From: the human T2T-CHM13v2.0 reference genome, Homo sapiens
Reading direction: 5' to 3' (one strand)
Assembly (NCBI RefSeq): GCF_009914755.1
Contig: NC_060927.1
Length of the DNA stretch: 64,000 nt
The number at the start of each line of letters is the position of its first letter. Positions within the stretch are counted from its first letter, which is position 1. The position numbers and the translations under genes were made by a program. A model generated the notes under the pieces. The model searched no databases. It saw nothing but the letters and a program-made list of their open reading frames with translations, and was not told the origin of the DNA. Shown here in pieces: positions 580 to 48,529 of the stretch.

Positions 580-1640
580 CCCCACTGTCTTTTTGTTTTC
601 TAAAACATTTGAAAGTAAGTTGCAGACATCATGCTATTTTATCCTAAATGCTTCAGCACATGCCTTATAAGAACAGCATCATGCTTCCACAGGAACATTA
701 GTTTTCATATCTGAGAAACTGAACATTAATAATATTATTCAACATACAGTTCTATTCAAAGTTCTCCAATTGTTTTATGTGTTTCCCCTATAAGTTGTGT
801 GAATGTGGTTTTTAATATTTTTACTTTTTAGAATCTAACCAGGGATCACAATTTGCCTTTGGTTATCATGTGTTCTTAGCTTCCTTTAATCTATAATCAT
901 CTCTTTTGTTTTGTTTGTTAATTTGTTTGGCCTTTCGTATCTTGACAGTTTTGACAAATTCAGGTAAACTGTTCTGGAAAATGTTCCACAATTTGGAACA
1001 CATCAGGTTAAATATTTTGTTCAGGAACATGACAGCAAGGTGATATTGTGGCTTCCCATTGTATCATATCAGGAGGTACATAATGGTAATTTGTCCCATT
1101 ATTGGTGATGCTTACTTTGATCCCTGGGCTAAGATGTTCTCACTATTGCAAAATTTCCCTTTTTTTCCTTCATAATTCATAATAATCTGTTGGGTGAAAT
1201 GCTGACAATGTGGAGGTCATTTTACTCTATGTTTTTAAGTAATATTTGATGATTGTTGCCTAAATCAATTCTGAGATTGTTTGCAAAATAGTTATTTTCT
1301 AATTGTATCATTTCTTCCACTTATAGTAGCTGGCATACTTTTTTTGAGGTTTTTTTTTTTTTTTTCCTGCTACCCCCTCTATATTTAGTTGACTTAAAAT
1401 GCAATATGTTATGATTTTTTTTCTTTAATGCTCAAATAGTCTCAAATTTGGTCAGCTGGATCTTTCAAACTTGTCCTTATGCCTTTTTGTTATGTCCCCA
1501 TTAATCATTGAGGACCTTCTTGTTTTCTGACATTATAAGAACATTTAAAATCATCAGCGATTTTTCTTGCCCTCAGCCATTTTTCCAAGGAACTGAAGTT
1601 CCTTTATGGGGAGAATGGTATTTAGAAACTAAGATGTTGG
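580..1640 (-). mobile_element. Ancient L1M (L1MC-like) 3' UTR fragment
   Basis: Motifs such as 'aaacatttgaaagtaagttgcagacatcatg' and 'ggagaatggtatttagaaactaagat' resemble the reverse complement of L1MC 3' ends; boundaries approximate. Confidence 0.6.
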
Positions 1641-3676
1641 CACCAGATGAGCACATCAATGTTAGGTTGGGCATGACCAATTTCCACTTCTACTGTATCT
1701 GGTCCATTTCCATTCCTCTTTCTCTTGTTCCCACTTATCTAATTTTGGATTTTATGCAATTAAAGCATTTACTTCCTTTGCATTTTCTGTGGTTAAGCAG
1801 TTAATTTCATGTGTTTCTACCTAAAATTCTATGTGATTCCTAAAGATTGGCAAGTGGTGAGAATCCCTCTGTCTTCATCTGACAATGAGAAAGCTCTAAA
1901 ATTCCACACGTTATTCAAGTATTTTGCAGTCACCTCTGTTTGTCTTTCATCTGATTTTTACAGATGTTCTAAAGTTCCCAAAATAAATAGAGGTAATCAG
2001 TGAATCACAATATCTGGAAGATAAAGCAAATGCTTACCTGTTTGCTTTGCCATCTGCTCCATTTTAGATTGGATCAGTACATATTCAGTCTCCCCAAACA
2101 GTATGCACTTCTCAAATACCCATGGTGACTGGCTCCAATTCCATCTGGTTGTTTCTGATTATTTCATTACAGCTGTTCAGATTTATAAACCCAGCAATTA
2201 AAAGAACTTAGACATGTTAATACTTATGTAGCCCTTAACCACCATGCCTCAAAAGAAAAATTGGGAAAGGTTTTACAACACATTGTTTCATTGAAGGGAC
2301 TGTTATTAGTTTAATGAAACATGCTACACATGCACATTATTTTTAAAGATTTCTTTCTTTCTTTTTAGAGTTGTCAAGCCTTCATTTACAAATAGAAGAT
2401 TAGCTATAGTTTATTTTAATTGTTCCAAATTTTACAATGGTGAAAAGCAACAATACAAATCCCAGATTTTTTTTCCCCTAGCAATGTTTCTATGGGAAGA
2501 TTAAGAGTGTCTGCAACTTGTTCTAGAGAAATAATTTCAATTGGCTCAAGTCCATTAACTGCAGGGAAAAACACCTGGCAAGGCGGTTGGTAGCAGCCCA
2601 TTCTTGTTAACCTTTCAGCCTTCACAATAACTATCAGCAGGCACTGAATCAGGGCCTCTAATAAACTGGCATTAAAGCTGCTGACAGCTAATAACTTTTT
2701 ATGGGTTTCCAGAACTAAATAAAAGAAAATTCTGATTAATTAGAATCAAACAATTTTCAAATTCCATAACCCCAGAATTAAAAAAAATTTAGACATATAA
2801 AATAAAGTAAATATTAATACGGCCTTTCAGAAGACATTTTCAGCATAAACAAAATAGATTTTAAAGTACATTATTTTAGCTATTTTACTCCAGTTTAACT
2901 TTCTGCTACCATGCTCTTTTTTTTTAGTAAAAGAGAAAATAGCTAAGAAATTGAAAACTTAGCATACCAACTATAGAAATAAAGTTTTAACTGAATTATT
3001 TCAACATGTCAAATAATTTTGCAAGTGAATTATAGAAACTCTTTAATCTTCAATAATTGTGGAAGAGTAGAACTCAGGAGAGACATTTTAAGGAGAGTAT
3101 TTAAAAGCTTCACACACATCGATTTTCTTCTTTTTGCCTTCCTATAAGAAAACCAATCTGCAGGTGGACTGTATCTGTAACCTGTTCACCACTGGTTAGG
3201 TGGAAACTAAGGTGGTCTTGAGGAGTTGCAGGAGGAAACCAGAGTCGAAAAGTTACGGAAACACTATGGTTCTTTAAGGAAATAGACAGAATTTATTTTC
3301 TTTCTTGAGCCAGATAGCTGATGTTCAGTTGCTAGATGCAACTCTGGTAGAAAGAAGGCATGGGTAGAGATTGAGTAGGGAGTCAGTTTATATCACTGAC
3401 GACTTTAGACAAAAACAATTGAGAACCATCATTGTACCAGAATGGAATGTGCGAGGTTTCTTAGGGGCTAGATTCAGGTAACTATGGTGATAGGAGGATA
3501 GAAAAGCTCTACCTATACCCATGGCTCAGCTCCTGTAGATGGAAGGAAATAAAGTTGTTTCTGAGAATGGAGAGACACCTGAGACAGTGAGTGAAGACGC
3601 AATACAGTGAGGTGAAAACTTCTCCTAACTTCTAAGCTTATAACACAACCTTGTAGGGTGTGGCGAAAACCATAGA

Positions 3677-9465: not shown

Positions 9466-9883
9466 TAATACAACATGTTAGAAAGTAGCCTAGGGAGAAA
9501 CAGAGCTATAACAGAGCCTAGGGAGAAACAGAGCTGAAGAACGGAGCTATAACCTGAAAATGAGTGAGTTAACCACAAAGAGACCCTTGAATTATTGAAT
9601 CCACTAAATTTAACTAGATTAGACAAAAATTAGGATTAGCAAGGAATTGCAGATGATGCCAATTCTGCCATATGTTCCTAAATGGCTCAATGGGACATCC
9701 TCAGTTACGTGGTATCTCAGGTGGTGGGCGTCTCTTGGCCCTCAATAGACACAGCACAGATTTACTCACACCTTATGTGAATAAAATATTTTACATCAAG
9801 TTTCAGCACATAAAGATTTTACTACAGCCCAAGCTTATGAAACCTCTAGGCAAAACTGTAATATAGCATACACAGAATATAAG

Positions 9884-10036
9884 AAAGAATATATATATAT
9901 ATTCTTTATATATATATATTCTTTATAGATATATTCTTTTTATATATATTCTTTATATATATTCTTTATATATATTCTTTATATATATAAATAATATATA
10001 TAAAGAATATATATAAAGTATATATATATAAAGAAA

Positions 10037-10078
<42 letters not shown>

Positions 10079-16709: not shown

Positions 16710-17487
16710 TGAGAGGTGAAGCCAGCTGAGCTTCTGGATCAGGTGGGGACTTGGAGAACTTTTGCGTCTAGCTAAAGGATTGTAAACACACCAATCAGCA
16801 CTCTGTAAAAATGCACCAGTCAGTGCTCTGTGTCTAGCTAAAGGATTGTAAATGCACCAATCAGCACTCTGTAAAAATAAACCAATCAGCGCTCTGTGTC
16901 TAGCTAAAGGATTGTAAACGCACCAATCAACCCTCTGTAAAATGGACCAATCAGCACTCTGTAAAATGGACCAATCAGCTCTCTGTAAAATGGACCAATC
17001 AGCAGGACGTGGGTGGGGCCAAATAGGGGACTAAAAGCTGGCCACCAGAGCCAGCAGCGGCAACCTGCTTGGGTCCCCTTCCGCACTATGGAAGCTTTGT
17101 TCTTTCGCTCTTTGTAATAAATCTTGCTGCTGCTCACTCTTTGGGTCCGCACTACCTTTATGAGCTGCAACACTCACTGCGAGGGTCTGCAGCTTCATTC
17201 CTGAAGTCAGTGAGACCACCAACCCACAGGGAGGAACAAACAGCTCCTGACGCTCCACCTTTATGAGCTGTAACGCTCACTACAAAGGTCTGCAGCTTCA
17301 CTCCTGAAGTCAGCCAGACCAGGAACCCACCAGAAGGAAGAAACTCTGGACGTATCTGAACATCTGAAAGAACAAACTCCGGACACACCGTCTTTAAGAG
17401 CTGTAAGAGTCACCTCGAGGGTCCGCGGCTTCATTCTTGAAGTCAGAGAGACCAAGAACCTACCAGAAGGAATAAATTCCGGACACA
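16710..17487 (+). mobile_element. ERV9 solo LTR (LTR12 family), 778 bp
   Basis: Starts 'tgagaggtgaagccagctg', ends 'ttccggacaca'; tandem 'ccaatcagcactctgtaaaatg' units; repeated U5 blocks; flanks taac/taat. Confidence 0.93.
16785..17040 (+). promoter_or_regulatory. LTR12 U3 CCAAT (NF-Y type) array plus GC/GT box
   Basis: Seven CCAAT boxes and one CCAGT variant in tandem units, followed by 'gtgggtgggg'; activity not shown by sequence. Confidence 0.6.
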
Positions 17488-40888: not shown

Positions 40889-42745
40889 ATTTAATTCAGG
40901 AAGCAATCCTTGATCTCCCCTTCCTGATGAAGTCACTCCTCTGAGCCCTGTTAGCACTCTCTACCCCTCTATATCACTTATATCCTGATTATTAATATGC
41001 ATATTTGTAGGGTTATCTTATTAACGACCTTGTACTCTCCCGACACTGTGACTATCATCTTAAGAGTAAAGTTTCTTATTTATAATTTCATTCTCCACAT
41101 TGCCTACTTTTGCATCTTACAATGCTATTTACTAGTTTTTCACATGTATGTGAGAACTAAATTGAATTTTTATTTTTGACAGATAATAAAAAAAGCATTT
41201 CATTTATAAAATGAAGCATATAGTTGAAATAAGTAGGAGTGAAAGAGGTATTTAGTTATGATCAAATATATTAAGAAAATTTGCTGTTCTAGTTTTCAAT
41301 GTACCAGAGTTCTATTTTAGTTAAATTATTTTTCTCTTTTAACCCTTCTCTCCCTTATGTTCTTTCATTTTTACTATATATGTATTCATATAGACACAGA
41401 GTGACTATTTCTCTTCCCTGATATCAAAGAATTTTTTCTCTATTTGATTTTTCCCTAGGGTTAGGCAGAGTGATTTAGAATAAACCAAATTTGACTTGAA
41501 TCCTTACACATTTCTACAAATGTCAAAGTTTTAAATTGCATAACTCTGTATAGAATTTATGAAATCTTGAGTTTCTCTTGGATTCTGCTTTGAGCAACAA
41601 AACATACCATGCTTAAAATTGAGTTCATCTGGAGAACACAAAGTAATGTCAAAAAATACTACTCAGCATATCACTTCCTCAGAAATATCTCAGTATACTC
41701 AACATACCTATCTATAAAACAGCAAACTTCTAAGCTGTGGAAGTGAATAAAATTGATATTAGTCAGTGACTTCCCTGTGGGAAGAAGGGTGGCAGTGTAA
41801 ATGCAGAGTAAAGGCTGAATGAAGTCTATATATGTTTGGGGGTATTTTCAGCAGCGGTTCTTTCAAAAGTCATTTCATTTATGGCTTTTTTGGTGATTTT
41901 GCACAAAATAACCTAGATACATTTAATCTTTACATTTTCAGAAGAAACCTGCTCAGTTTGGAGCATGTTCACTTCTTTTGAAATGTTGATGTTGAAAGCT
42001 GCATATAGATCTTTTGAGAGGCCACATGCTTGAGATTCTATTTTTAAATTTTCATGACAGCTTTTACACTCTCCTGAGCATGCTGGATCTAAGTTTCTAC
42101 TGAAGCATGTAATTACCAGCAATGACTTAGCATCTGCCATGTGGTGCCAAGTAATGGTAAATGGAAGCAATGTCAGAAAGAGAAGATTGGCAAGTTGGAA
42201 ATACTGAGATAACTCAGAGACTCACCTACTCTGGCAAACACTCTCACCATTGCTGGCAGCACAAGAGAACTTTACTTGCAAGAAATGCTTATGTAATATT
42301 TAAAGTGCCCTACATCAGAGAAAATAAAAGGGTTACTTTTTTTTTGTTGTTGTTGTTTAGAATAAAGACATAATATCATTGACTGAATGCCCTACTCTTC
42401 CAAAACTATTTCTTACCTAACTTGTCATTTTATTTTACTACCTCCACTATTTGGTTTGCTCCTTTGGATGAGAATATTGTCTATAGAAGGTAACTCTCAA
42501 AACATAGCTATGAGATAAAGACCTAGGAATGGGGTTGAAGATGAAGCTGTAATTTAGCTTTAGGGTATACAGGAATCACCTATAGAGACTTTTAAAATTA
42601 CAAATTCCTGGACTCAGCCTTCAGAGATTCAAATTCAGTAGGTTTGGAATTAAGCGGAGCAATCTTCATTTTTCTGAAGCACTGAGACCTTGGACCAGAT
42701 GGGAAAGATATCACTCTAACTTGAAAAAAGCTACCTTTTAGCCTC

Positions 42746-43652: not shown

Positions 43653-44000
<348 letters not shown>

Positions 44001-44009
44001 TTAAAGTCC

Positions 44010-44235
44010 TAGTATTTGAAGTACAGTAGAGAAAATATAGTTAATAATAATTTATTGCATATTTCAAAATAGCTAGAAAAGGATAATTGGAATATTTCGA
44101 ACATAAAAAAGGTAAATGTTTGAGGTGATAGATATCTTAATTACCCTGATTTGACCATTACATATTGTACATAGACGTTTATTAAATATTTCATGTATCT
44201 CCCAAATATTGAAACTATTATATATCAATAAACTT
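44010..44235 (+). mobile_element. L1MA-like 3' end
   Basis: 'tttgaggtgatagatatcttaattaccctgatttgaccattacatattgtac' and terminal AATAAA. Confidence 0.75.
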
Positions 44236-45616
44236 AAAGCACATAACAATATTACATATATGTAATTCATTTATACTTTGGATTCCGCATGAAGCAGTTT
44301 TGACAAATTGCTGTTATGGTCTATTCATTGTGCTTTAGTATTTGACTGCTAGAACAGATAGACAGTTTTAAACCCTCCCTGTTTTGAAACTGTGTACAGA
44401 TTGACACAGTCATAGTTACTGAATAATTCAAGGGGAAAATATCTGATATTCCTCAGGTAGCCACGATCTTTAAGCCTGGCTACAGATGCATTTTCCTTGA
44501 ACCAAAAGATCTCAATTAAGATTAAAGTTTCAAGCGAAACATAGGAGCTGCATTCTCTGAATGAGTACTAAATGTGGTGAAATGAGTTCAGCTATTTTGA
44601 ACATCTACCATGCAGAATAAATTTTATAAATAAATTAAATCACATAACCTAATGAATATATTTCTTGTCACTTAGCAAGATAGCTGTTACCAGCTAAATA
44701 CTAAAAGCTGTGTATTTAATTGATAAAAGCACATTTATTACATTAGAAATACGTAAAGTTACCCTGCAATGTGACTACCACACAGAGTTCTGTCTCATTA
44801 ATTCCAAAGAGACATTGTGCAAGTTTTATGGTAATTTTGACAAATTAAGTTTCTTAGTGTTTTTAATTTGGATTTCATAATCTTTCTTGCCAAATAATTA
44901 TTTAACTTCACAAATGCTAGCTTTGTAATAATTAATTGGTATTTAATTATCATATAACCAATGATATTATAATCTCTATATGAAGTTTCATTTCATTTAA
45001 AATAAAACCTCATTTTAATGTAAATTTTTTTCAGATTAGTATCAGTGACAGTTTTTCACATGAGATAGTAAACTTGGTTTACTCTCTGAGCAAGCAAGTA
45101 ATCGTCTTTCAAGATCAGCAAGGAATTTAGGTATTGTTCTTTCTGAAAATTGCCCTAAAGTTGTACTGTCATTTTAAAACATAAGACCATGTCACATACT
45201 TTGGTCCCTTGAGACTCTAACTATAATAATTTTTTGGTTTAGGACATTACAATTAATGGAAAAAGATAAAAATAATGGAAAACTAAGAGGTGTAATTCTG
45301 GGTTCGGTGCACTAATCTAGACAGTATTCTTGTCCCTTAATAAAACATGGCAAGAATCACACATACTTATTTATTTTTTATGTATCACTCTTCTCTACAT
45401 TTCCATAATGAAAAGAATCACCTGAGGTACTTGTTAAAAATACCGCTTCCTGGGGCTTTCTCTGAAAATTCTGATTTACTGGGATTGAAATGAGGCCTTG
45501 GAATTTGTATTTTTTCCAAGGACCTAAATAATTTAAATCATCAAGGGAGGCTAGAAAATACTGTTCTTGTGTTAAGATCTGGAAAAAGGAAATTTAGAAT
45601 CACTTGTGCCTGAACA

Positions 45617-45851
45617 AGGATATATAGATCAGTTCTCCCAACCTTGATTGCATTTTAAAAATTCTGATGGCCGAGGCACACTTAGACCGATTAAATCATA
45701 ATTTCTAAAGTGGGATTCAAGTGTCAGAATGAGTAACTGGGAAACTGCCTCATAGAAGGGTGTGACAGCTAACCAAGTGGTTTCAGAGAATCTGAACAGA
45801 TTTGAAAGTGAAAGACCGGGAAAATAAACATAAGATTAAAAATGCATATTT
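45617..45851 (+). repeat. Left arm (source copy) of a 235-bp perfect inverted repeat; includes a MER5-like fragment
   Basis: Base-by-base reverse complement of 46477-46711 with no mismatch. Confidence 0.97.
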
Positions 45852-45931
45852 TTCAAGGTGATAAAATTCCTATAGTCAGGGCTACTGCTTGCTCACATAG
45901 TGCAGAGATTTATTGAATTAGGAATCTAAGG

Positions 45932-46115
45932 CAGTGGTTTTAAAACTTGACTATGCATCAGCATTATGTGGAGGGCTGGTTAAAACAGTTTGGTTGGTCC
46001 CAGCCCCAGAGTTTGTAATCAGTAGGTCTGGGATGAGTCCCAAGATTTAAATTTGTAATAAGTTTCAGTTGAAGCTGATGCTGCTGGTTCAGATAACACA
46101 CTTTGAAAACAAATG
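45932..46115. mobile_element. MER5A-like hAT element in the spacer
   Basis: 'cagtggttttaaaactt' ... 'cacactttgaaaacaaatg' with 'tcagtaggtctggg'. Confidence 0.75.
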
Positions 46116-46239
46116 TTCTCAGGGAAGGTACAGTGAAGATGAGATATATGGAATGGGCATGGTGGGACTATATTAGATAGAGCCTAGGACTGGGTAAGAT
46201 GTTATTCTGATAGAACACCTCCTGCCTATGATTACCATA

Positions 46240-46739
46240 AATATAGCCAGTATTTATCGAGTGCCTACTATGTGTCAGGTCTTATTCTAAGCATTCTATA
46301 TATATTGAGTCATTTAATCTTTATAATAATCCTACATGGCAGATATGCTGTTATTGTTTGTATTTTATAGCTGCATAAGTTGAGGCACAGAGAAGTTAAG
46401 TAATTTGTTCAAGACAATGCAGATAGTAAATTGTAGGGCTGAAGTCTGAGGGATCTGGCTTCCAGTCCATGCAGTTAAATATGCATTTTTAATCTTATGT
46501 TTATTTTCCCGGTCTTTCACTTTCAAATCTGTTCAGATTCTCTGAAACCACTTGGTTAGCTGTCACACCCTTCTATGAGGCAGTTTCCCAGTTACTCATT
46601 CTGACACTTGAATCCCACTTTAGAAATTATGATTTAATCGGTCTAAGTGTGCCTCGGCCATCAGAATTTTTAAAATGCAATCAAGGTTGGGAGAACTGAT
46701 CTATATATCCTGAATTTTCAGTTAACCACCGTTATACTG
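46240..46739 (-). mobile_element. MIR SINE split by the inserted right arm
   Basis: MIR core 'tgaggcacagagaagttaagtaattt'; text stops at 'gcagttaa' (46478) and resumes 'cagttaaccaccgttatactg' (46719-46739). Confidence 0.8.
46477..46711 (-). repeat. Right arm (derived copy) of the 235-bp perfect inverted repeat
   Basis: Exact reverse complement of 45617-45851. Confidence 0.97.
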
Positions 46740-47241
46740 AAGAAGGTGAAGATGAATAAGATTTGTTCAAACAATAGATGTTCTAGGTCTGCTTGTAGTA
46801 TCTACATTTAATAGCTGTTTTCAGTCATCTCCTGCCCTCGAATAATTCTTTGGCTTGCATATTGTGCCTACCCATAAAGCAAATGGTAACAGCAGGTTTG
46901 CCAACATTATTCCTTCATTCTATTTCCAGGAAGAGATCATAGAATTTTTAAGGTGAAGGATCACAGATGATTATCTTTACAGTTTACCTTGGTTACATTC
47001 ACATGTAACCCTAATTTGCTTTTATGGCATAAAGTTATAATCCACCCCCAAAGTACTTTTAGAAATATACTCAAAGTTAATGGGTAACTAACTAACTTTA
47101 ATTCATTGTAGTAATACTACAATGAATTGTAAAGGGAGAAACTATCCAAGTCTAAATGTATTTTAAATGAAGAAAATAATACAGATTAATTTCTTTGTTG
47201 ACAGTGGAATTAAATTGGAAATAATTAAAAATAAAATAACT

Positions 47242-47345
47242 AGGAATCCTCCAAATATGTGGAAATTAAAATACCCAGGAATCCTCCAAATATTTGAAAA
47301 TTAAAATACACAAGAAACCCCCAAATATTTGAAAATTAAAATACC
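47242..47345. repeat. 3 x 35-bp tandem repeat in an L1-like fragment
   Basis: aggaatcctccaaatatgtggaaattaaaataccc repeated three times with a few changes. Confidence 0.85.
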
Positions 47346-47682
47346 TAATATCAACAACATGTGTGATAGCTTAATCAGCACTGGCTGATGTGCCAGGAGT
47401 TCTGAAGGATTTTAGGAGCATTCCATAACTAGGAAAGGATGGAGTATGGAAGCCCATCTTTATAATTAAAACAACCTGCTAACTTCTATTTCTGGCTGAG
47501 TTTGAATAATTGTACCATACTGACTTTCCACCAAAAACAACTAGAAAACCAGACAAAATATGTAAAACAGGTGTTTCAGACATTGGACAGACAGCAGCAC
47601 ACTACTGTTACCCCAAAAAAAGAAAAATAAGACAAATTCTATGATTTCCCCATCTTTCCGTCTGAAGGCACTTTCTGGAAAG

Positions 47683-47685
<3 letters not shown>

Positions 47686-47729
<44 letters not shown>
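47686..47729. repeat. (TG)n microsatellite within an old L1M 5' fragment
   Basis: Direct reading. Confidence 0.95.
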
Positions 47730-47730
<1 letters not shown>

Positions 47731-48226
47731 TTGGGGGTGGAGGTTGTGAGAGCCAAGCAGAATATAGTGCATTTACTGAGTTGAGAAGATAGAGATGGAG
47801 TTCAGATGACTGAGTCGACGAGAATTTGCAGGGCAGAGTGCTGGAGAGGAAGGAGCTATGTGGAGAAGATTCTCCTTGATGCTATTGCAAAATGCTAATC
47901 TGTACTAATCTGGAAATGCCTAAGTAAAATGGTATGAGGCCAAGCAAAAACTACTTGGGAGTTGCCACTTGAATATTCCCCAGATTTACACAGGACTGAG
48001 AGATGTTCCAGTTCTGACCAGCCAGATTGGAAACACATAAATGAACATATGGGGTGTTCAATAAAGATCCTTGAAGAGTCAACCTAACTCATAGTGATAA
48101 AATCTGGAGTAAAAGGATATACTAAACTTGTCCCAATAAAGGTTAGAAACAAGCCTCAGAATGATAAAGCTGAACCACAAGTTATTTGAGTGCCTACCTA
48201 CAAAGTTCAACACTTAAAGACATCGA

Positions 48227-48529
<303 letters not shown>

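What the first reader, a model, noticed from the sequence alone, without database searches (positions are those of the whole stretch)
45617..46725. Very recent 235-bp templated inverted duplication inserted into a MIR
Seen: 45617-45851 and 46477-46711 are exact reverse complements (235/235) around a 625-bp spacer, in otherwise highly diverged ancient repeats. The right copy interrupts a MIR: 'cagttaa' occurs both before (46472-46478) and after (46719-46725) the insert, there is a 2-nt overlap (aa) at the left junction, and a 7-nt filler 'gaatttt' (46712-46718) also occurs inside the arm. There is no poly(A) and the arm ends are not element termini. Inference: a replication template switch (FoSTeS/MMBIR) or polymerase-theta-type templated insertion, recent enough to be lineage-specific or polymorphic, or kept identical by gene conversion.
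Basis: partly seen in the sequence, partly recalled or inferred. Interest (0 to 1): 0.8.

Follow-up and report, generated by a model that had tools for sequence, protein, structure and literature searches.

The report
Young inverted duplicate inside old repeat
A 235-base stretch of human chromosome 3 was copied backwards into an old repeat 625 bases away, which is a well-documented by-product of DNA break repair or replication in primate genomes and therefore real but ordinary.

Summary
45617-45851 and 46477-46711 are exact reverse complements (235/235) 625 nt apart. Similarity falls to chance just outside both ends. The genome holds only these two copies.

The right copy is the insert. It splits an old dispersed repeat. 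I recall this repeat as MIR, but no tool named it. Removing 46479-46725 restores the repeat's continuity.

The junctions are as reported: 2-nt overlap (AA), 7-nt filler (GAATTTT), 7-nt target duplication (CAGTTAA), and no A/T run of 5 or more.

This matches a published class:
- "Repair-mediated duplications" of Pace et al. 2009: 824 proximal cases in human, with the same junction signatures.
- The inverted duplications under 1 kb, inserted within 5 kb of the other copy, that made up 54% of sequenced "inversions" in Sudmant et al. 2015.

The locus is not in Pace's table.

The most likely mechanism is a staggered break whose resected 3' tail folded back and copied itself. A replication-fork template switch is a close rival.

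Zero differences in 235 nt bounds the age at roughly 13 Myr or less. Polymorphism is untested, because no other human or ape assembly was available.

It is a new member of a known kind and of low interest.

The parts
45617..45851 (+). Donor arm (source copy), 235 nt
   Evidence: Exact reverse complement of 46477-46711. The arm and its borders are otherwise single-copy in the genome. It is taken as the donor only because the other copy is the one that interrupts a repeat. An ancestral state for this copy was not shown directly.
45852..46476 (.). Spacer of 625 nt between the arms
   Evidence: It contains a common old dispersed repeat at about 45922-46123 (300 candidates genome-wide, 40 scored, 71-80% identity). 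It also contains the left part of the interrupted repeat.
46236..46478 (.). Left fragment of the interrupted old dispersed repeat (MIR by recall, not named by any tool)
   Evidence: 87 genome candidates, 40 scored, non-self hits 69-88% identical on many chromosomes. A profile of 19 copies hits 46237-46471 at E=3.3e-47. An independent profile of 18 loci hits 46236-46462 at E=1.3e-24.
46472..46478 (+). Target-site duplication, copy 1 (CAGTTAA); its last two bases AA (46477-46478) are the microhomology with the arm
46477..46711 (-). Acceptor arm: the inserted reverse-complement copy
   Evidence: Deleting 46479-46725 in a script raises the repeat-profile score from 75.9 to 94.5 bits and extends the alignment from profile position 250 to 284. 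Shifted control deletions give less gain or none.
46712..46718 (+). 7-nt filler GAATTTT
   Evidence: Not part of the arm or of the repeat. Its origin is ambiguous.
46719..46725 (+). Target-site duplication, copy 2 (CAGTTAA)
   Evidence: It runs on into the rest of the repeat.
46719..46740 (.). Right stub of the interrupted repeat (about 22 nt including the duplicated 7 nt)
   Evidence: The motif TTAACCAC-gap-TATACTG at 46722-46739 occurs 133 times in the genome against 32 for the backwards control. In 18 of the first 30 such loci the family matching the window's left flank lies directly upstream and collinear. The profile reaches 46740 once the insert is removed.
45462..45471 (-). Candidate second template for the filler (10-nt match to GAATTTT plus CAG)
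   Evidence: This is the longest match anywhere in the window to a junction substring that holds the whole filler. It lies 146 nt beyond the donor's outer end, on the same strand as the donor. The chance level is about 4% per 10-mer and about 15% over four registers, so it is only suggestive.
45823..45828 (+). AATAAA hexamer ending 23 nt before the donor's inner end (relevant only to the RNA-mediated rival)
   Evidence: It is the only AATAAA in 45500-45900. 3.3% of window positions lie 10-30 nt after such a hexamer (5.3% if ATTAAA is included).

Best explanation
This is a repair-mediated proximal inverted duplication. The general reading is a single event of DNA-templated copying, primed by microhomology, that pasted a reverse copy of 45617-45851 into an old repeat. 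I hold that at about 0.9.

The specific route I commit to, at about 0.5, has six inferred steps:
1. The repeat suffered a break with short 3' overhangs, from nicks 5-7 nt apart on the two strands around CAGTTAA.
2. The left end was resected by at least about 0.9 kb.
3. Its + strand 3' tail folded back and paired its terminal AA with TT at 45850-45851 of the same strand. It was then extended leftwards to 45617.
4. The new strand let go, and 7 nt of filler were added. These may come from a second short priming on 45465-45471 of the same strand.
5. The new 3' end paired through CAG with the tip of the right end's overhang.
6. Fill-in of both overhangs left CAGTTAA on both sides.

Shown: the anatomy, the direction of copying (the right copy is the insert), and uniqueness in the genome. 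Inferred: the break, the resection, the fold-back and the polymerase.
For: - Exact 235-nt arms with sharp ends.
- Only two copies in 3.1 Gb.
- The right copy splits a dispersed repeat. Two independent profiles match the left flank (E=3.3e-47; E=1.3e-24).
- 18 of 30 loci fetched through the right-flank motif carry the left-flank family collinear and abutting the motif. 11 of 30 had no hit, and 1 of 30 had a hit on the other strand downstream. The script's own narrower criterion counted 14 of 30.
- Removing 46479-46725 adds 18.6 bits.
- Junctions: 2-nt microhomology at the junction that must have been made first; filler at the far junction; a possible 3-nt CAG microhomology at the return; a 7-nt duplication.
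- The donor lies on the same side as the priming end and is inverted, as fold-back of a resected tail predicts (inference).
- Published class, Pace et al. 2009 (abstract and sections 6 and 7 read, passages from 4, 9 and 21): 824 human duplications with the donor under 5 kb away, mean 162 bp, maximum 619 bp. Junctions carry microhomology of 2-9 nt, filler of 1-68 nt and target duplications of 4-21 nt. The combination 'MH+TSD+Filler' was seen in 2 of 39 proximal cases. None of the 39 had an A/T tail.
- Sudmant et al. 2015 (passages): 54% of sequenced inversions were inverted duplications, nearly all under 1 kb and inserted within 5 kb of the other copy.
Against: - Nothing in one genome shows that a break rather than a stalled fork started the event. 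Both routes give the same product.
- The 2-nt primer pairing is minimal.
- The second-template idea for the filler has no microhomology at its entry, and its 10-nt match has a chance level of 4-15%.
- Templated inserts ascribed to polymerase theta are, by my recall, tens of bases copied from close by. A 235-nt copy from 625 nt away would be unusually long.
- Only 6 of Pace's 39 proximal cases had a target duplication, so a staggered break is not the rule in this class.
- The donor's ancestral state was not shown directly (searches found no old repeat crossing its edges).
- No outgroup or second haplotype was available.
Confidence: 0.5

Rival explanations
1. Replication-fork template switch (FoSTeS/MMBIR, or a long-range version of the four-point template-switch model).

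In a rightward-moving fork, the nascent leading strand left its template at 46478. It annealed by AA to the lagging-strand template 625 nt behind the fork and copied 45851 down to 45617. It hopped once more for 7 nt, then returned to the original template at CAG, 7 nt before the point of departure.
For: - The geometry fits. The template needed is the parental + strand, which is the lagging-strand template behind a rightward fork (inference).
- There is microhomology at both main switches (AA and CAG) and a possible second hop on the same strand in the same direction.
- Loytynoja and Goldman 2017 describe inverted copies made this way.
- Loytynoja 2022 reports events up to 318 bp (passages).
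Against: - The switch points lie in the order 3-2-4-1, with point 4 (46472) before point 1 (46478). Loytynoja and Goldman report that types in which 4 precedes 1 were not observed, because the return would need the newly made duplex to reopen.
- The filler needs an extra hop or untemplated bases, which their single switch-and-return model does not cover.
- 625 nt exceeds the 250-bp distance limit of the 2022 short-read filter.
Confidence: 0.3
2. The event is old and the two arms have been kept identical by gene conversion between inverted repeats. This rival concerns the age, not the way the copy was made.
For: Identical arms alone cannot exclude it.
Against: - Complementarity drops to chance exactly at both arm ends, with no decayed similarity beyond them.
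- The two copies of the 7-nt duplication are also identical, and conversion between the arms would not maintain that.
- In Pace's table, divergence between donor and acceptor tracks phylogenetic age: 0-3.3% in the 15 human-specific rows, and mostly 5-15% in the 'all primates' rows seen.
Confidence: 0.1
3. RNA-mediated insertion. A + strand transcript of the donor region, ending near 45851, was reverse transcribed at a nick in the repeat. This could be L1 target-primed reverse transcription, or RNA-templated repair using a local transcript.
For: - The donor's inner end lies 23 nt after the only AATAAA in 45500-45900.
- The target reads TT/AA at the possible nick (CAGTT/AACC).
- There is a 5-7-nt target duplication.
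- These resemble two of the three features listed for class 1 templated sequence insertions (Onozawa and Aplan 2016, abstract only).
Against: - There is no A/T tail at either end; the longest runs are 3 and 4 nt.
- The AATAAA coincidence has a chance level of 3-5% per end.
- A retrocopy landing 625 nt from its own source would be an extreme coincidence for insertion in trans.
- None of Pace's 39 proximal cases had an A/T tail, while 17 of 29 distant ones did.
- No gene or transcript is annotated in the window (hub annotation).
Confidence: 0.04
4. Assembly artefact, or a change private to the cultured cell line from which the assembly was made.
For: Only one assembly could be examined, and no reads were available.
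Against: - The insert has the full biological signature of microhomology, filler and a target duplication inside a repeat. Misassembly does not produce that.
- The whole structure of 1.1 kb is far shorter than the long reads used for such assemblies (recall).
Confidence: 0.03

Closest known systems
[quoted passage not shown]
   Same: - An insert of at least 50 bp interrupts a transposable element.
- There is exactly one other copy in the genome.
- The donor is under 5 kb away on the same chromosome.
- The length lies within their range (mean 162 bp, maximum 619 bp).
- There is no A/T tail.
- The junctions carry microhomology, filler and a target duplication, their class 'MH+TSD+Filler'.
- Seven of their human-specific cases also have identical donor and acceptor.
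   Different: - The locus is not listed. I read all chr3 rows of sheet '<5 kb' of their Table S1, and none is a MIR acceptor of about 240 bp with an upstream donor about 625 bp away. A search for distances 624-629 gave no chr3 row.
- A likely reason is that the right stub of the repeat is only about 22 nt, too short to be annotated as a second fragment. Absence from hg18 is also possible.
- The text I read does not report donor orientation genome-wide ('inverted' occurs 0 times).
Inverted duplications ('Inverted Dup') of the 1000 Genomes structural-variant map, Sudmant et al. 2015 (PMC4617611)
   Same: A duplicated stretch under 1 kb is inserted in inverted orientation within 5 kb of the other copy. 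[quoted passage not shown] They were the commonest class (54%) among sequenced inversions (passages).
   Different: Those were ascertained as polymorphisms. Whether this locus is polymorphic is unknown.
Short-range template-switch mutations, four-point model (Loytynoja and Goldman 2017, PMC5453318; Loytynoja 2022, PMC9435742)
   Same: [quoted passage not shown] The longest reported event is 318 bp.
   Different: - The return point lies before the departure point, an order they did not observe.
- There is an extra 7-nt filler.
- The 625-nt distance exceeds their 250-bp filter.
Templated sequence insertion polymorphisms (Onozawa and Aplan 2016, PMC5110952)
   Same: Templated sequence is inserted at a break. 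Class 2 is attributed to a DNA patch at a double-strand break. Class 1 has a target duplication and a cryptic poly(A) signal (abstract only).
   Different: Their templates are distant and derived from RNA (section headings). Here the template is 625 nt away and there is no poly(A).
Synthesis-dependent microhomology-mediated end joining, and polymerase theta 'snap-back' extension (PMC2943611, PMC5728401, PMC4912351; search listing and abstract starts only)
   Same: A 3' end folds back on a short repeat. Limited synthesis creates new sequence, which then pairs by microhomology with the other end.
   Different: By my recall those inserts are a few to tens of bases copied from within tens of bases. 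Here 235 nt were copied from 625 nt away.

Membership tests
Repair-mediated proximal duplication (Pace et al. 2009) | Insert of at least 50 bp interrupting a transposable element, with the two fragments abutting in consensus coordinates (within 30 bp) | tested here: met
   A 247-nt gain (46479-46725) splits a dispersed repeat. The profile alignment runs on from position 250 to 284, and the score rises from 75.9 to 94.5 bits, when the insert is removed. 18 of 30 family loci are collinear across the point.
Repair-mediated proximal duplication (Pace et al. 2009) | [quoted passage not shown] | tested here: met
   two full copies only. The third match is 52 nt at 85%.
Repair-mediated proximal duplication (Pace et al. 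2009) | Donor on the same chromosome, more than 50 bp and less than 5 kb from the acceptor | tested here: met
   625 nt between the copies.
Repair-mediated proximal duplication (Pace et al. 2009) | No poly(A) or poly(T) tract of 5 bp or more at an end of the insert | tested here: met
   The longest A or T runs at the junctions are 3 and 4 nt.
Repair-mediated proximal duplication (Pace et al. 2009) | Junction signatures of imperfect repair (microhomology 2-9 nt, filler 1-68 nt, deletion, or target duplication 4-21 nt) | tested here: met
   AA overlap of 2 nt, filler of 7 nt, duplication of 7 nt.
Repair-mediated proximal duplication (Pace et al. 2009) | Empty orthologous site in an outgroup or another haplotype | not testable with these tools
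   Only one human assembly is held. No ape or second human genome was available.
Short-range template-switch mutation (four-point model) | Fragment 2->3 copied in reverse complement from nearby sequence | tested here: met
Short-range template-switch mutation (four-point model) | Switch-point order in which point 1 precedes point 4 (the only orders observed in real data) | tested here: not met
   The order is 3 (45617), 2 (45851), 4 (46472), 1 (46478).
Short-range template-switch mutation (four-point model) | A single switch and return with no extra sequence | tested here: not met
   The 7-nt filler at 46712-46718. The model does not cover successive switches.
L1-mediated retrocopy / class 1 templated sequence insertion | Poly(A) tail at the 3' end of the insert | tested here: not met
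L1-mediated retrocopy / class 1 templated sequence insertion | Target-site duplication and insertion at a TTTT/A-like site | tested here: inconclusive
   A duplication of 5-7 nt is present. The site reads CAGTT/AACC, which matches only the TT/AA core. The criterion is from the abstract.
Transposable element insertion (an element with its own termini) | Multiple dispersed copies sharing the same ends | tested here: not met
   Two copies genome-wide. The only other similarity covers arm positions 37-88, well inside the arm.
   No repeat library is on hand. Shown instead: an old dispersed family, 69-88% identical copies on many chromosomes, with a profile of about 280 positions. A literature search for a 26-nt string from a family member found 0 papers. 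The name is my recall.

The most novel reading that the evidence does not exclude
The insert was not copied from DNA. It was reverse transcribed in cis from a local + strand transcript that ended at a cryptic poly(A) site: AATAAA at 45823-45828, 23 nt before the donor's end. That copy patched an L1-endonuclease-like staggered nick at TT/AA in the repeat. This would be a germline example of transcript-templated break repair next to the transcript's own source.

A milder variant is that the allele is still polymorphic, so that a perfect 235-bp hairpin-forming repeat is segregating in humans. From Pace's data, 1 of 10 human-specific cases tested was polymorphic. That locus has 0% donor-acceptor divergence in their Table S1, and 4 of the 10 tested were identical pairs. 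I put polymorphism at about 0.2.
Probability: 0.04. Interest if true: 0.6.

Novelty: new member of a known kind. Interest (0 to 1): 0.22.

Why it matters
This is a clean, fully resolved example of how new perfect inverted repeats arise in the human genome. Every junction base can be assigned.

It has three practical uses:
- It is a presence/absence marker that can be dated once ape and pangenome alignments are made.
- It shows that catalogues built on annotated repeat fragments can miss such events. Here one fragment is only about 22 nt, and the locus is absent from Pace's Table S1.
- Its 7-nt duplication and its return point before the departure point bear on the choice between break repair and fork switching for this class.

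It changes no current understanding. No gene or annotated element is touched; the nearest annotated enhancer is at 649-3459, more than 42 kb away.

Tried and rejected
- Looking for other copies of the interrupted repeat inside the window (blastn and nhmmer with single sequences). Only weak matches (E 0.04 or worse), and none crossed the junction. Not informative.
- The first family profile, built from 19 of the 29 loci fetched with the left flank (those whose match reached query position 195 or beyond). Its tail beyond position about 245 was noise.
- A direct test of the 20 nt after the second CAGTTAA against the 20 nt after the first, on those 19 copies. No difference: scores 4-7 against 4-9, and shuffles did as well. 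Inconclusive, because most of those copies lack that end of the repeat.
- Single-sequence nhmmer of the left flank against the 30 motif loci. Only 3 of 30 hits, 2 by the adjacency criterion. Replaced by the profile search.
- The search for an old repeat crossing the donor arm's edges, which would have shown the left copy to be ancestral. None was found; the donor and its borders are single-copy.
- Rfam scan of 44000-48500: 0 matches.
- Literature search for a 26-nt string from a family member, to obtain the repeat's name: 0 papers.
- Transposon insertion was rejected because there are only two copies genome-wide.
- A direct 5-mer CAAGG brackets the donor arm (45615-45619 and 45854-45858, read). 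I considered it as a sign that the left copy is the insert. I rejected that, because the right copy is the one that splits a repeat. I take the 5-mer as chance.
- CCTGAA at 45609 and at the right junction 46709 was considered as a further microhomology. It is too short to weigh.
Full report
**1. Observation**

- The window holds a perfect inverted repeat. Its arms are 45617-45851 and 46477-46711, 235 nt each, 100% complementary, with 625 nt between them. A script confirmed the identity base for base.
- Complementarity ends abruptly.
  - In the 10, 20, 30 and 50 nt outside the outer ends, 1, 3, 6 and 12 bases match.
  - Inside the inner ends, 3, 4, 7 and 12 match. These are chance levels.
- CAGTTAA stands at 46472-46478 and again at 46719-46725.
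- The arm begins at 46477, so AA is shared between the first CAGTTAA and the arm.
- GAATTTT (46712-46718) lies between the arm and the second CAGTTAA.
- The longest A or T run at either junction is 3 and 4 nt.
- In the whole window there are 59 inverted pairs, and the 25 longest were shown. This is the only one at 100%; the other 24 are 74-89%.
- As single-stranded DNA, 45600-46730 folds into the full stem with a minimum free energy of -347.9 kcal/mol. That follows trivially from the identity.

**2. Not a mobile element and not a segmental duplication**

- The window's own genome is 3.1 Gb in 24 contigs. It holds the arm twice, plus one further match of 52 nt at 85% covering arm positions 37-88.
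- Queries across the donor's two borders found only themselves, the other arm and that same short match.
- The spacer carries a common old dispersed repeat at about 45922-46123: 300 candidates, 40 scored.

**3. Which copy is the insert**

- The sequence left of the right arm (46236-46478) belongs to an old dispersed family. There were 87 candidates and 40 were scored. Non-self hits are 69-88% identical on many chromosomes.
- I built a profile from 19 of the 29 fetched copies, namely those whose match reached query position 195 or beyond. It hits 46237-46471 at E=3.3e-47, profile positions 2-241.
- To test continuity without using the left flank, I searched the genome for a motif taken from the right flank, TTAACCAC-gap-TATACTG (46722-46739). 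It occurs 133 times, against 32 for the backwards control.
- I scanned the first 30 loci in genomic order, chosen without regard to my question, with the left-flank profile.
  - 19 of 30 have a hit at E of 0.001 or better.
  - In 18 of 30 the best hit is on the motif strand, upstream and collinear. The subject gap and the profile remainder agree within 18 nt in all 18, and within 4 nt in 15. The profile's position of about 245 abuts the motif.
  - 1 of 30 has its hit on the other strand, downstream.
  - 11 of 30 have no hit.
  - The script's own narrower criterion counted 14 of 30.
- A second profile, built only from those 18 loci, hits the window's left flank (46236-46462) at E=1.3e-24, 75.9 bits, ending at profile position 250.
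- I then deleted 46479-46725 in a script. The score rises to 94.5 bits and the alignment runs to profile position 284, which corresponds to 46740.
- Control deletions of the same length gave the following.
  - Shifted by +5 to +40: no gain (75.9-76.2 bits).
  - Shifted by -10, -20 and -40: less gain (91.1, 86.5 and 76.9 bits).
  - Shifted by -5: the identical sequence, because of the 7-nt duplication.
- Part of the gain is by construction, since the 18 loci were chosen by the right-flank motif. The independent evidence is the collinear left-flank homology.
- Conclusion: the right arm plus filler is an insertion into this repeat, and CAGTTAA is a duplicated piece of the repeat.
- I recall this family as MIR, lying on the minus strand with its 5' head at the right. 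No tool named it, and a literature search for a 26-nt string from a member found nothing.

**4. The filler**

- The longest match anywhere in the window to a junction substring that includes the whole filler is 10 nt, GAATTTT plus CAG. It is the reverse complement of 45462-45471.
- That site lies 146 nt beyond the donor's outer end, on the donor's strand.
- This would make the event a two-hop copy along one template. It would also supply a 3-nt CAG microhomology for the return, which explains why the return landed 7 nt before the departure.
- However, 3.9% of the window's 10-mers recur within 1300 nt, about 15% over four registers. There is also no microhomology at the entry to this second template.
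- Three other 7-nt matches lie nearby, at 45658, 45863 and 46664. The origin of the filler therefore stays open.

**5. Age**

- I assume 0.5e-9 substitutions per site per year (recalled, not from a call).
- The chance of no difference in 235 nt is then 0.79 at 1 Myr, 0.49 at 3 Myr, 0.24 at 6 Myr, 0.095 at 10 Myr and 0.047 at 13 Myr.
- With a flat prior on age, about three in four such events would postdate the human-chimpanzee split (my arithmetic from those figures).
- The arm holds 3 CpG sites. They would mutate faster and tighten the bound somewhat.
- 'Very recent' is thus plausible but not shown.

**6. What is known**

- Pace et al. 2009 (PMC2671141). I read the abstract, sections 6 and 7, passages of 4, 9 and 21, and Table S1 in part.
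  - They searched hg18 for exactly this anatomy: inserts of at least 50 bp that split an annotated transposable element and have one other copy in the genome.
  - They found 824 cases with the donor under 5 kb away, mean 162 bp, maximum 619 bp.
  - The junctions carry microhomology (2-9 nt), filler (1-68 nt), deletions, and target duplications (4-21 nt).
  - 'MH+TSD+Filler' occurred in 2 of 39 proximal cases, and none of the 39 had an A/T tail.
  - They ascribe the events to synthesis-dependent strand annealing at breaks.
  - Seven human-specific cases had identical donor and acceptor. Of 10 human-specific cases genotyped, 1 was polymorphic.
  - I read every chr3 row of the '<5 kb' sheet, and none matches this locus. 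A search for distances 624-629 found no chr3 row. The first 15 rows, the human-specific ones, include no chr3 entry.
  - Their rule needs both repeat fragments to be annotated, and the right stub here is only about 22 nt. Absence from the table therefore says nothing about presence in hg18.
- Sudmant et al. 2015 (PMC4617611, passages). 54% of sequenced inversions were inverted duplications. Nearly all were under 1 kb and inserted within 5 kb of the other copy, and they were not typically linked to retrotransposition.
- Loytynoja and Goldman 2017, and Loytynoja 2022 (passages). They model reverse-complement copies as fork template switches.
  - The longest event reported is 318 bp.
  - Orders of switch points in which 4 precedes 1 were not observed. 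Here point 4 (46472) precedes point 1 (46478).

**7. Mechanism**

- Shown: a reverse copy of 45617-45851 was joined to ...CAGTTAA through a 2-nt overlap. The far junction has 7 extra bases. 7 nt of the target are duplicated.
- Inferred, and my preferred route (about 0.5):
  - A break with short 3' overhangs formed in the repeat.
  - The resected left tail folded back on itself, with AA pairing to TT at 45850-45851.
  - About 233 nt were synthesised, and a short further addition followed.
  - The new end paired with the tip of the right overhang, possibly through CAG, and the gaps were filled in.
  - This explains the inverted orientation, the donor lying on the side of the priming junction, the filler at the far junction, and the duplication.
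- The close rival (about 0.3) is a leading-strand switch to the lagging-strand template 625 nt behind a rightward fork. It gives the same product but fits the duplication less well.
- An RNA route has three coincidences in its favour: AATAAA ending 23 nt before the donor's end, with a chance level of 3-5%; TT/AA at the site; and the duplication.
  - It lacks any A/T tail and would need a retrocopy to land 625 nt from its source. I give it about 0.04.
- I give artefact or cell-line change about 0.03.
- An old event kept uniform by conversion gets about 0.1. It is disfavoured by the sharp arm ends.

**8. Verdict**

- The specific pathway and the claimed recency remain open.
- The thing belongs to a well-described and common class, so it is a new member of a known kind and of low interest.

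Noticed in passing
window 45380-45568: An imperfect palindrome just left of the donor. The stretch matches its own reverse complement at 60% over 189 nt (E about 2e-6). It has a relative at 42550-42715. It looks like an old palindromic dispersed repeat. The candidate second template for the filler (45462-45471) sits near its centre.
   Followed up: partly
window 45922-46123: A well-kept old dispersed repeat of about 190 nt in the spacer between the arms. There are at least 300 candidate copies in the genome, and the 40 scored are 71-80% identical. No tool named the family.
   Followed up: partly
window 45615-45619 and 45854-45858: The donor arm is itself bracketed by a direct 5-mer, CAAGG. The first copy overlaps the arm's first 3 bases, and the second starts 3 nt after its end (read). 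I take it as chance, since the right copy is the one that splits a repeat. I did not quantify it.
   Followed up: no
window 45609-45614 and 46709-46714: CCTGAA occurs 3 nt left of the donor's outer end and again across the arm/filler junction of the insert (18 occurrences in the window). It could mark a further 3-nt microhomology (CCT) and a 3-nt copy (GAA). It is too short to judge.
   Followed up: no
window 47219-47347 and 47686-47729: There is a 35-nt tandem repeat of 3.7 copies (81% matches) 0.5 kb right of the insert, and a perfect (TG)22 microsatellite 1 kb right of it. Sequences of this kind can stall forks. No link to the event was tested.
   Followed up: no
window 16763-17004: An array of 66-nt units (3 copies, 71-89%) runs into 24-nt units.
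   Followed up: no
window 9879-10052: An AT-rich tandem array with units of 13-17 nt, partly self-complementary.
   Followed up: no
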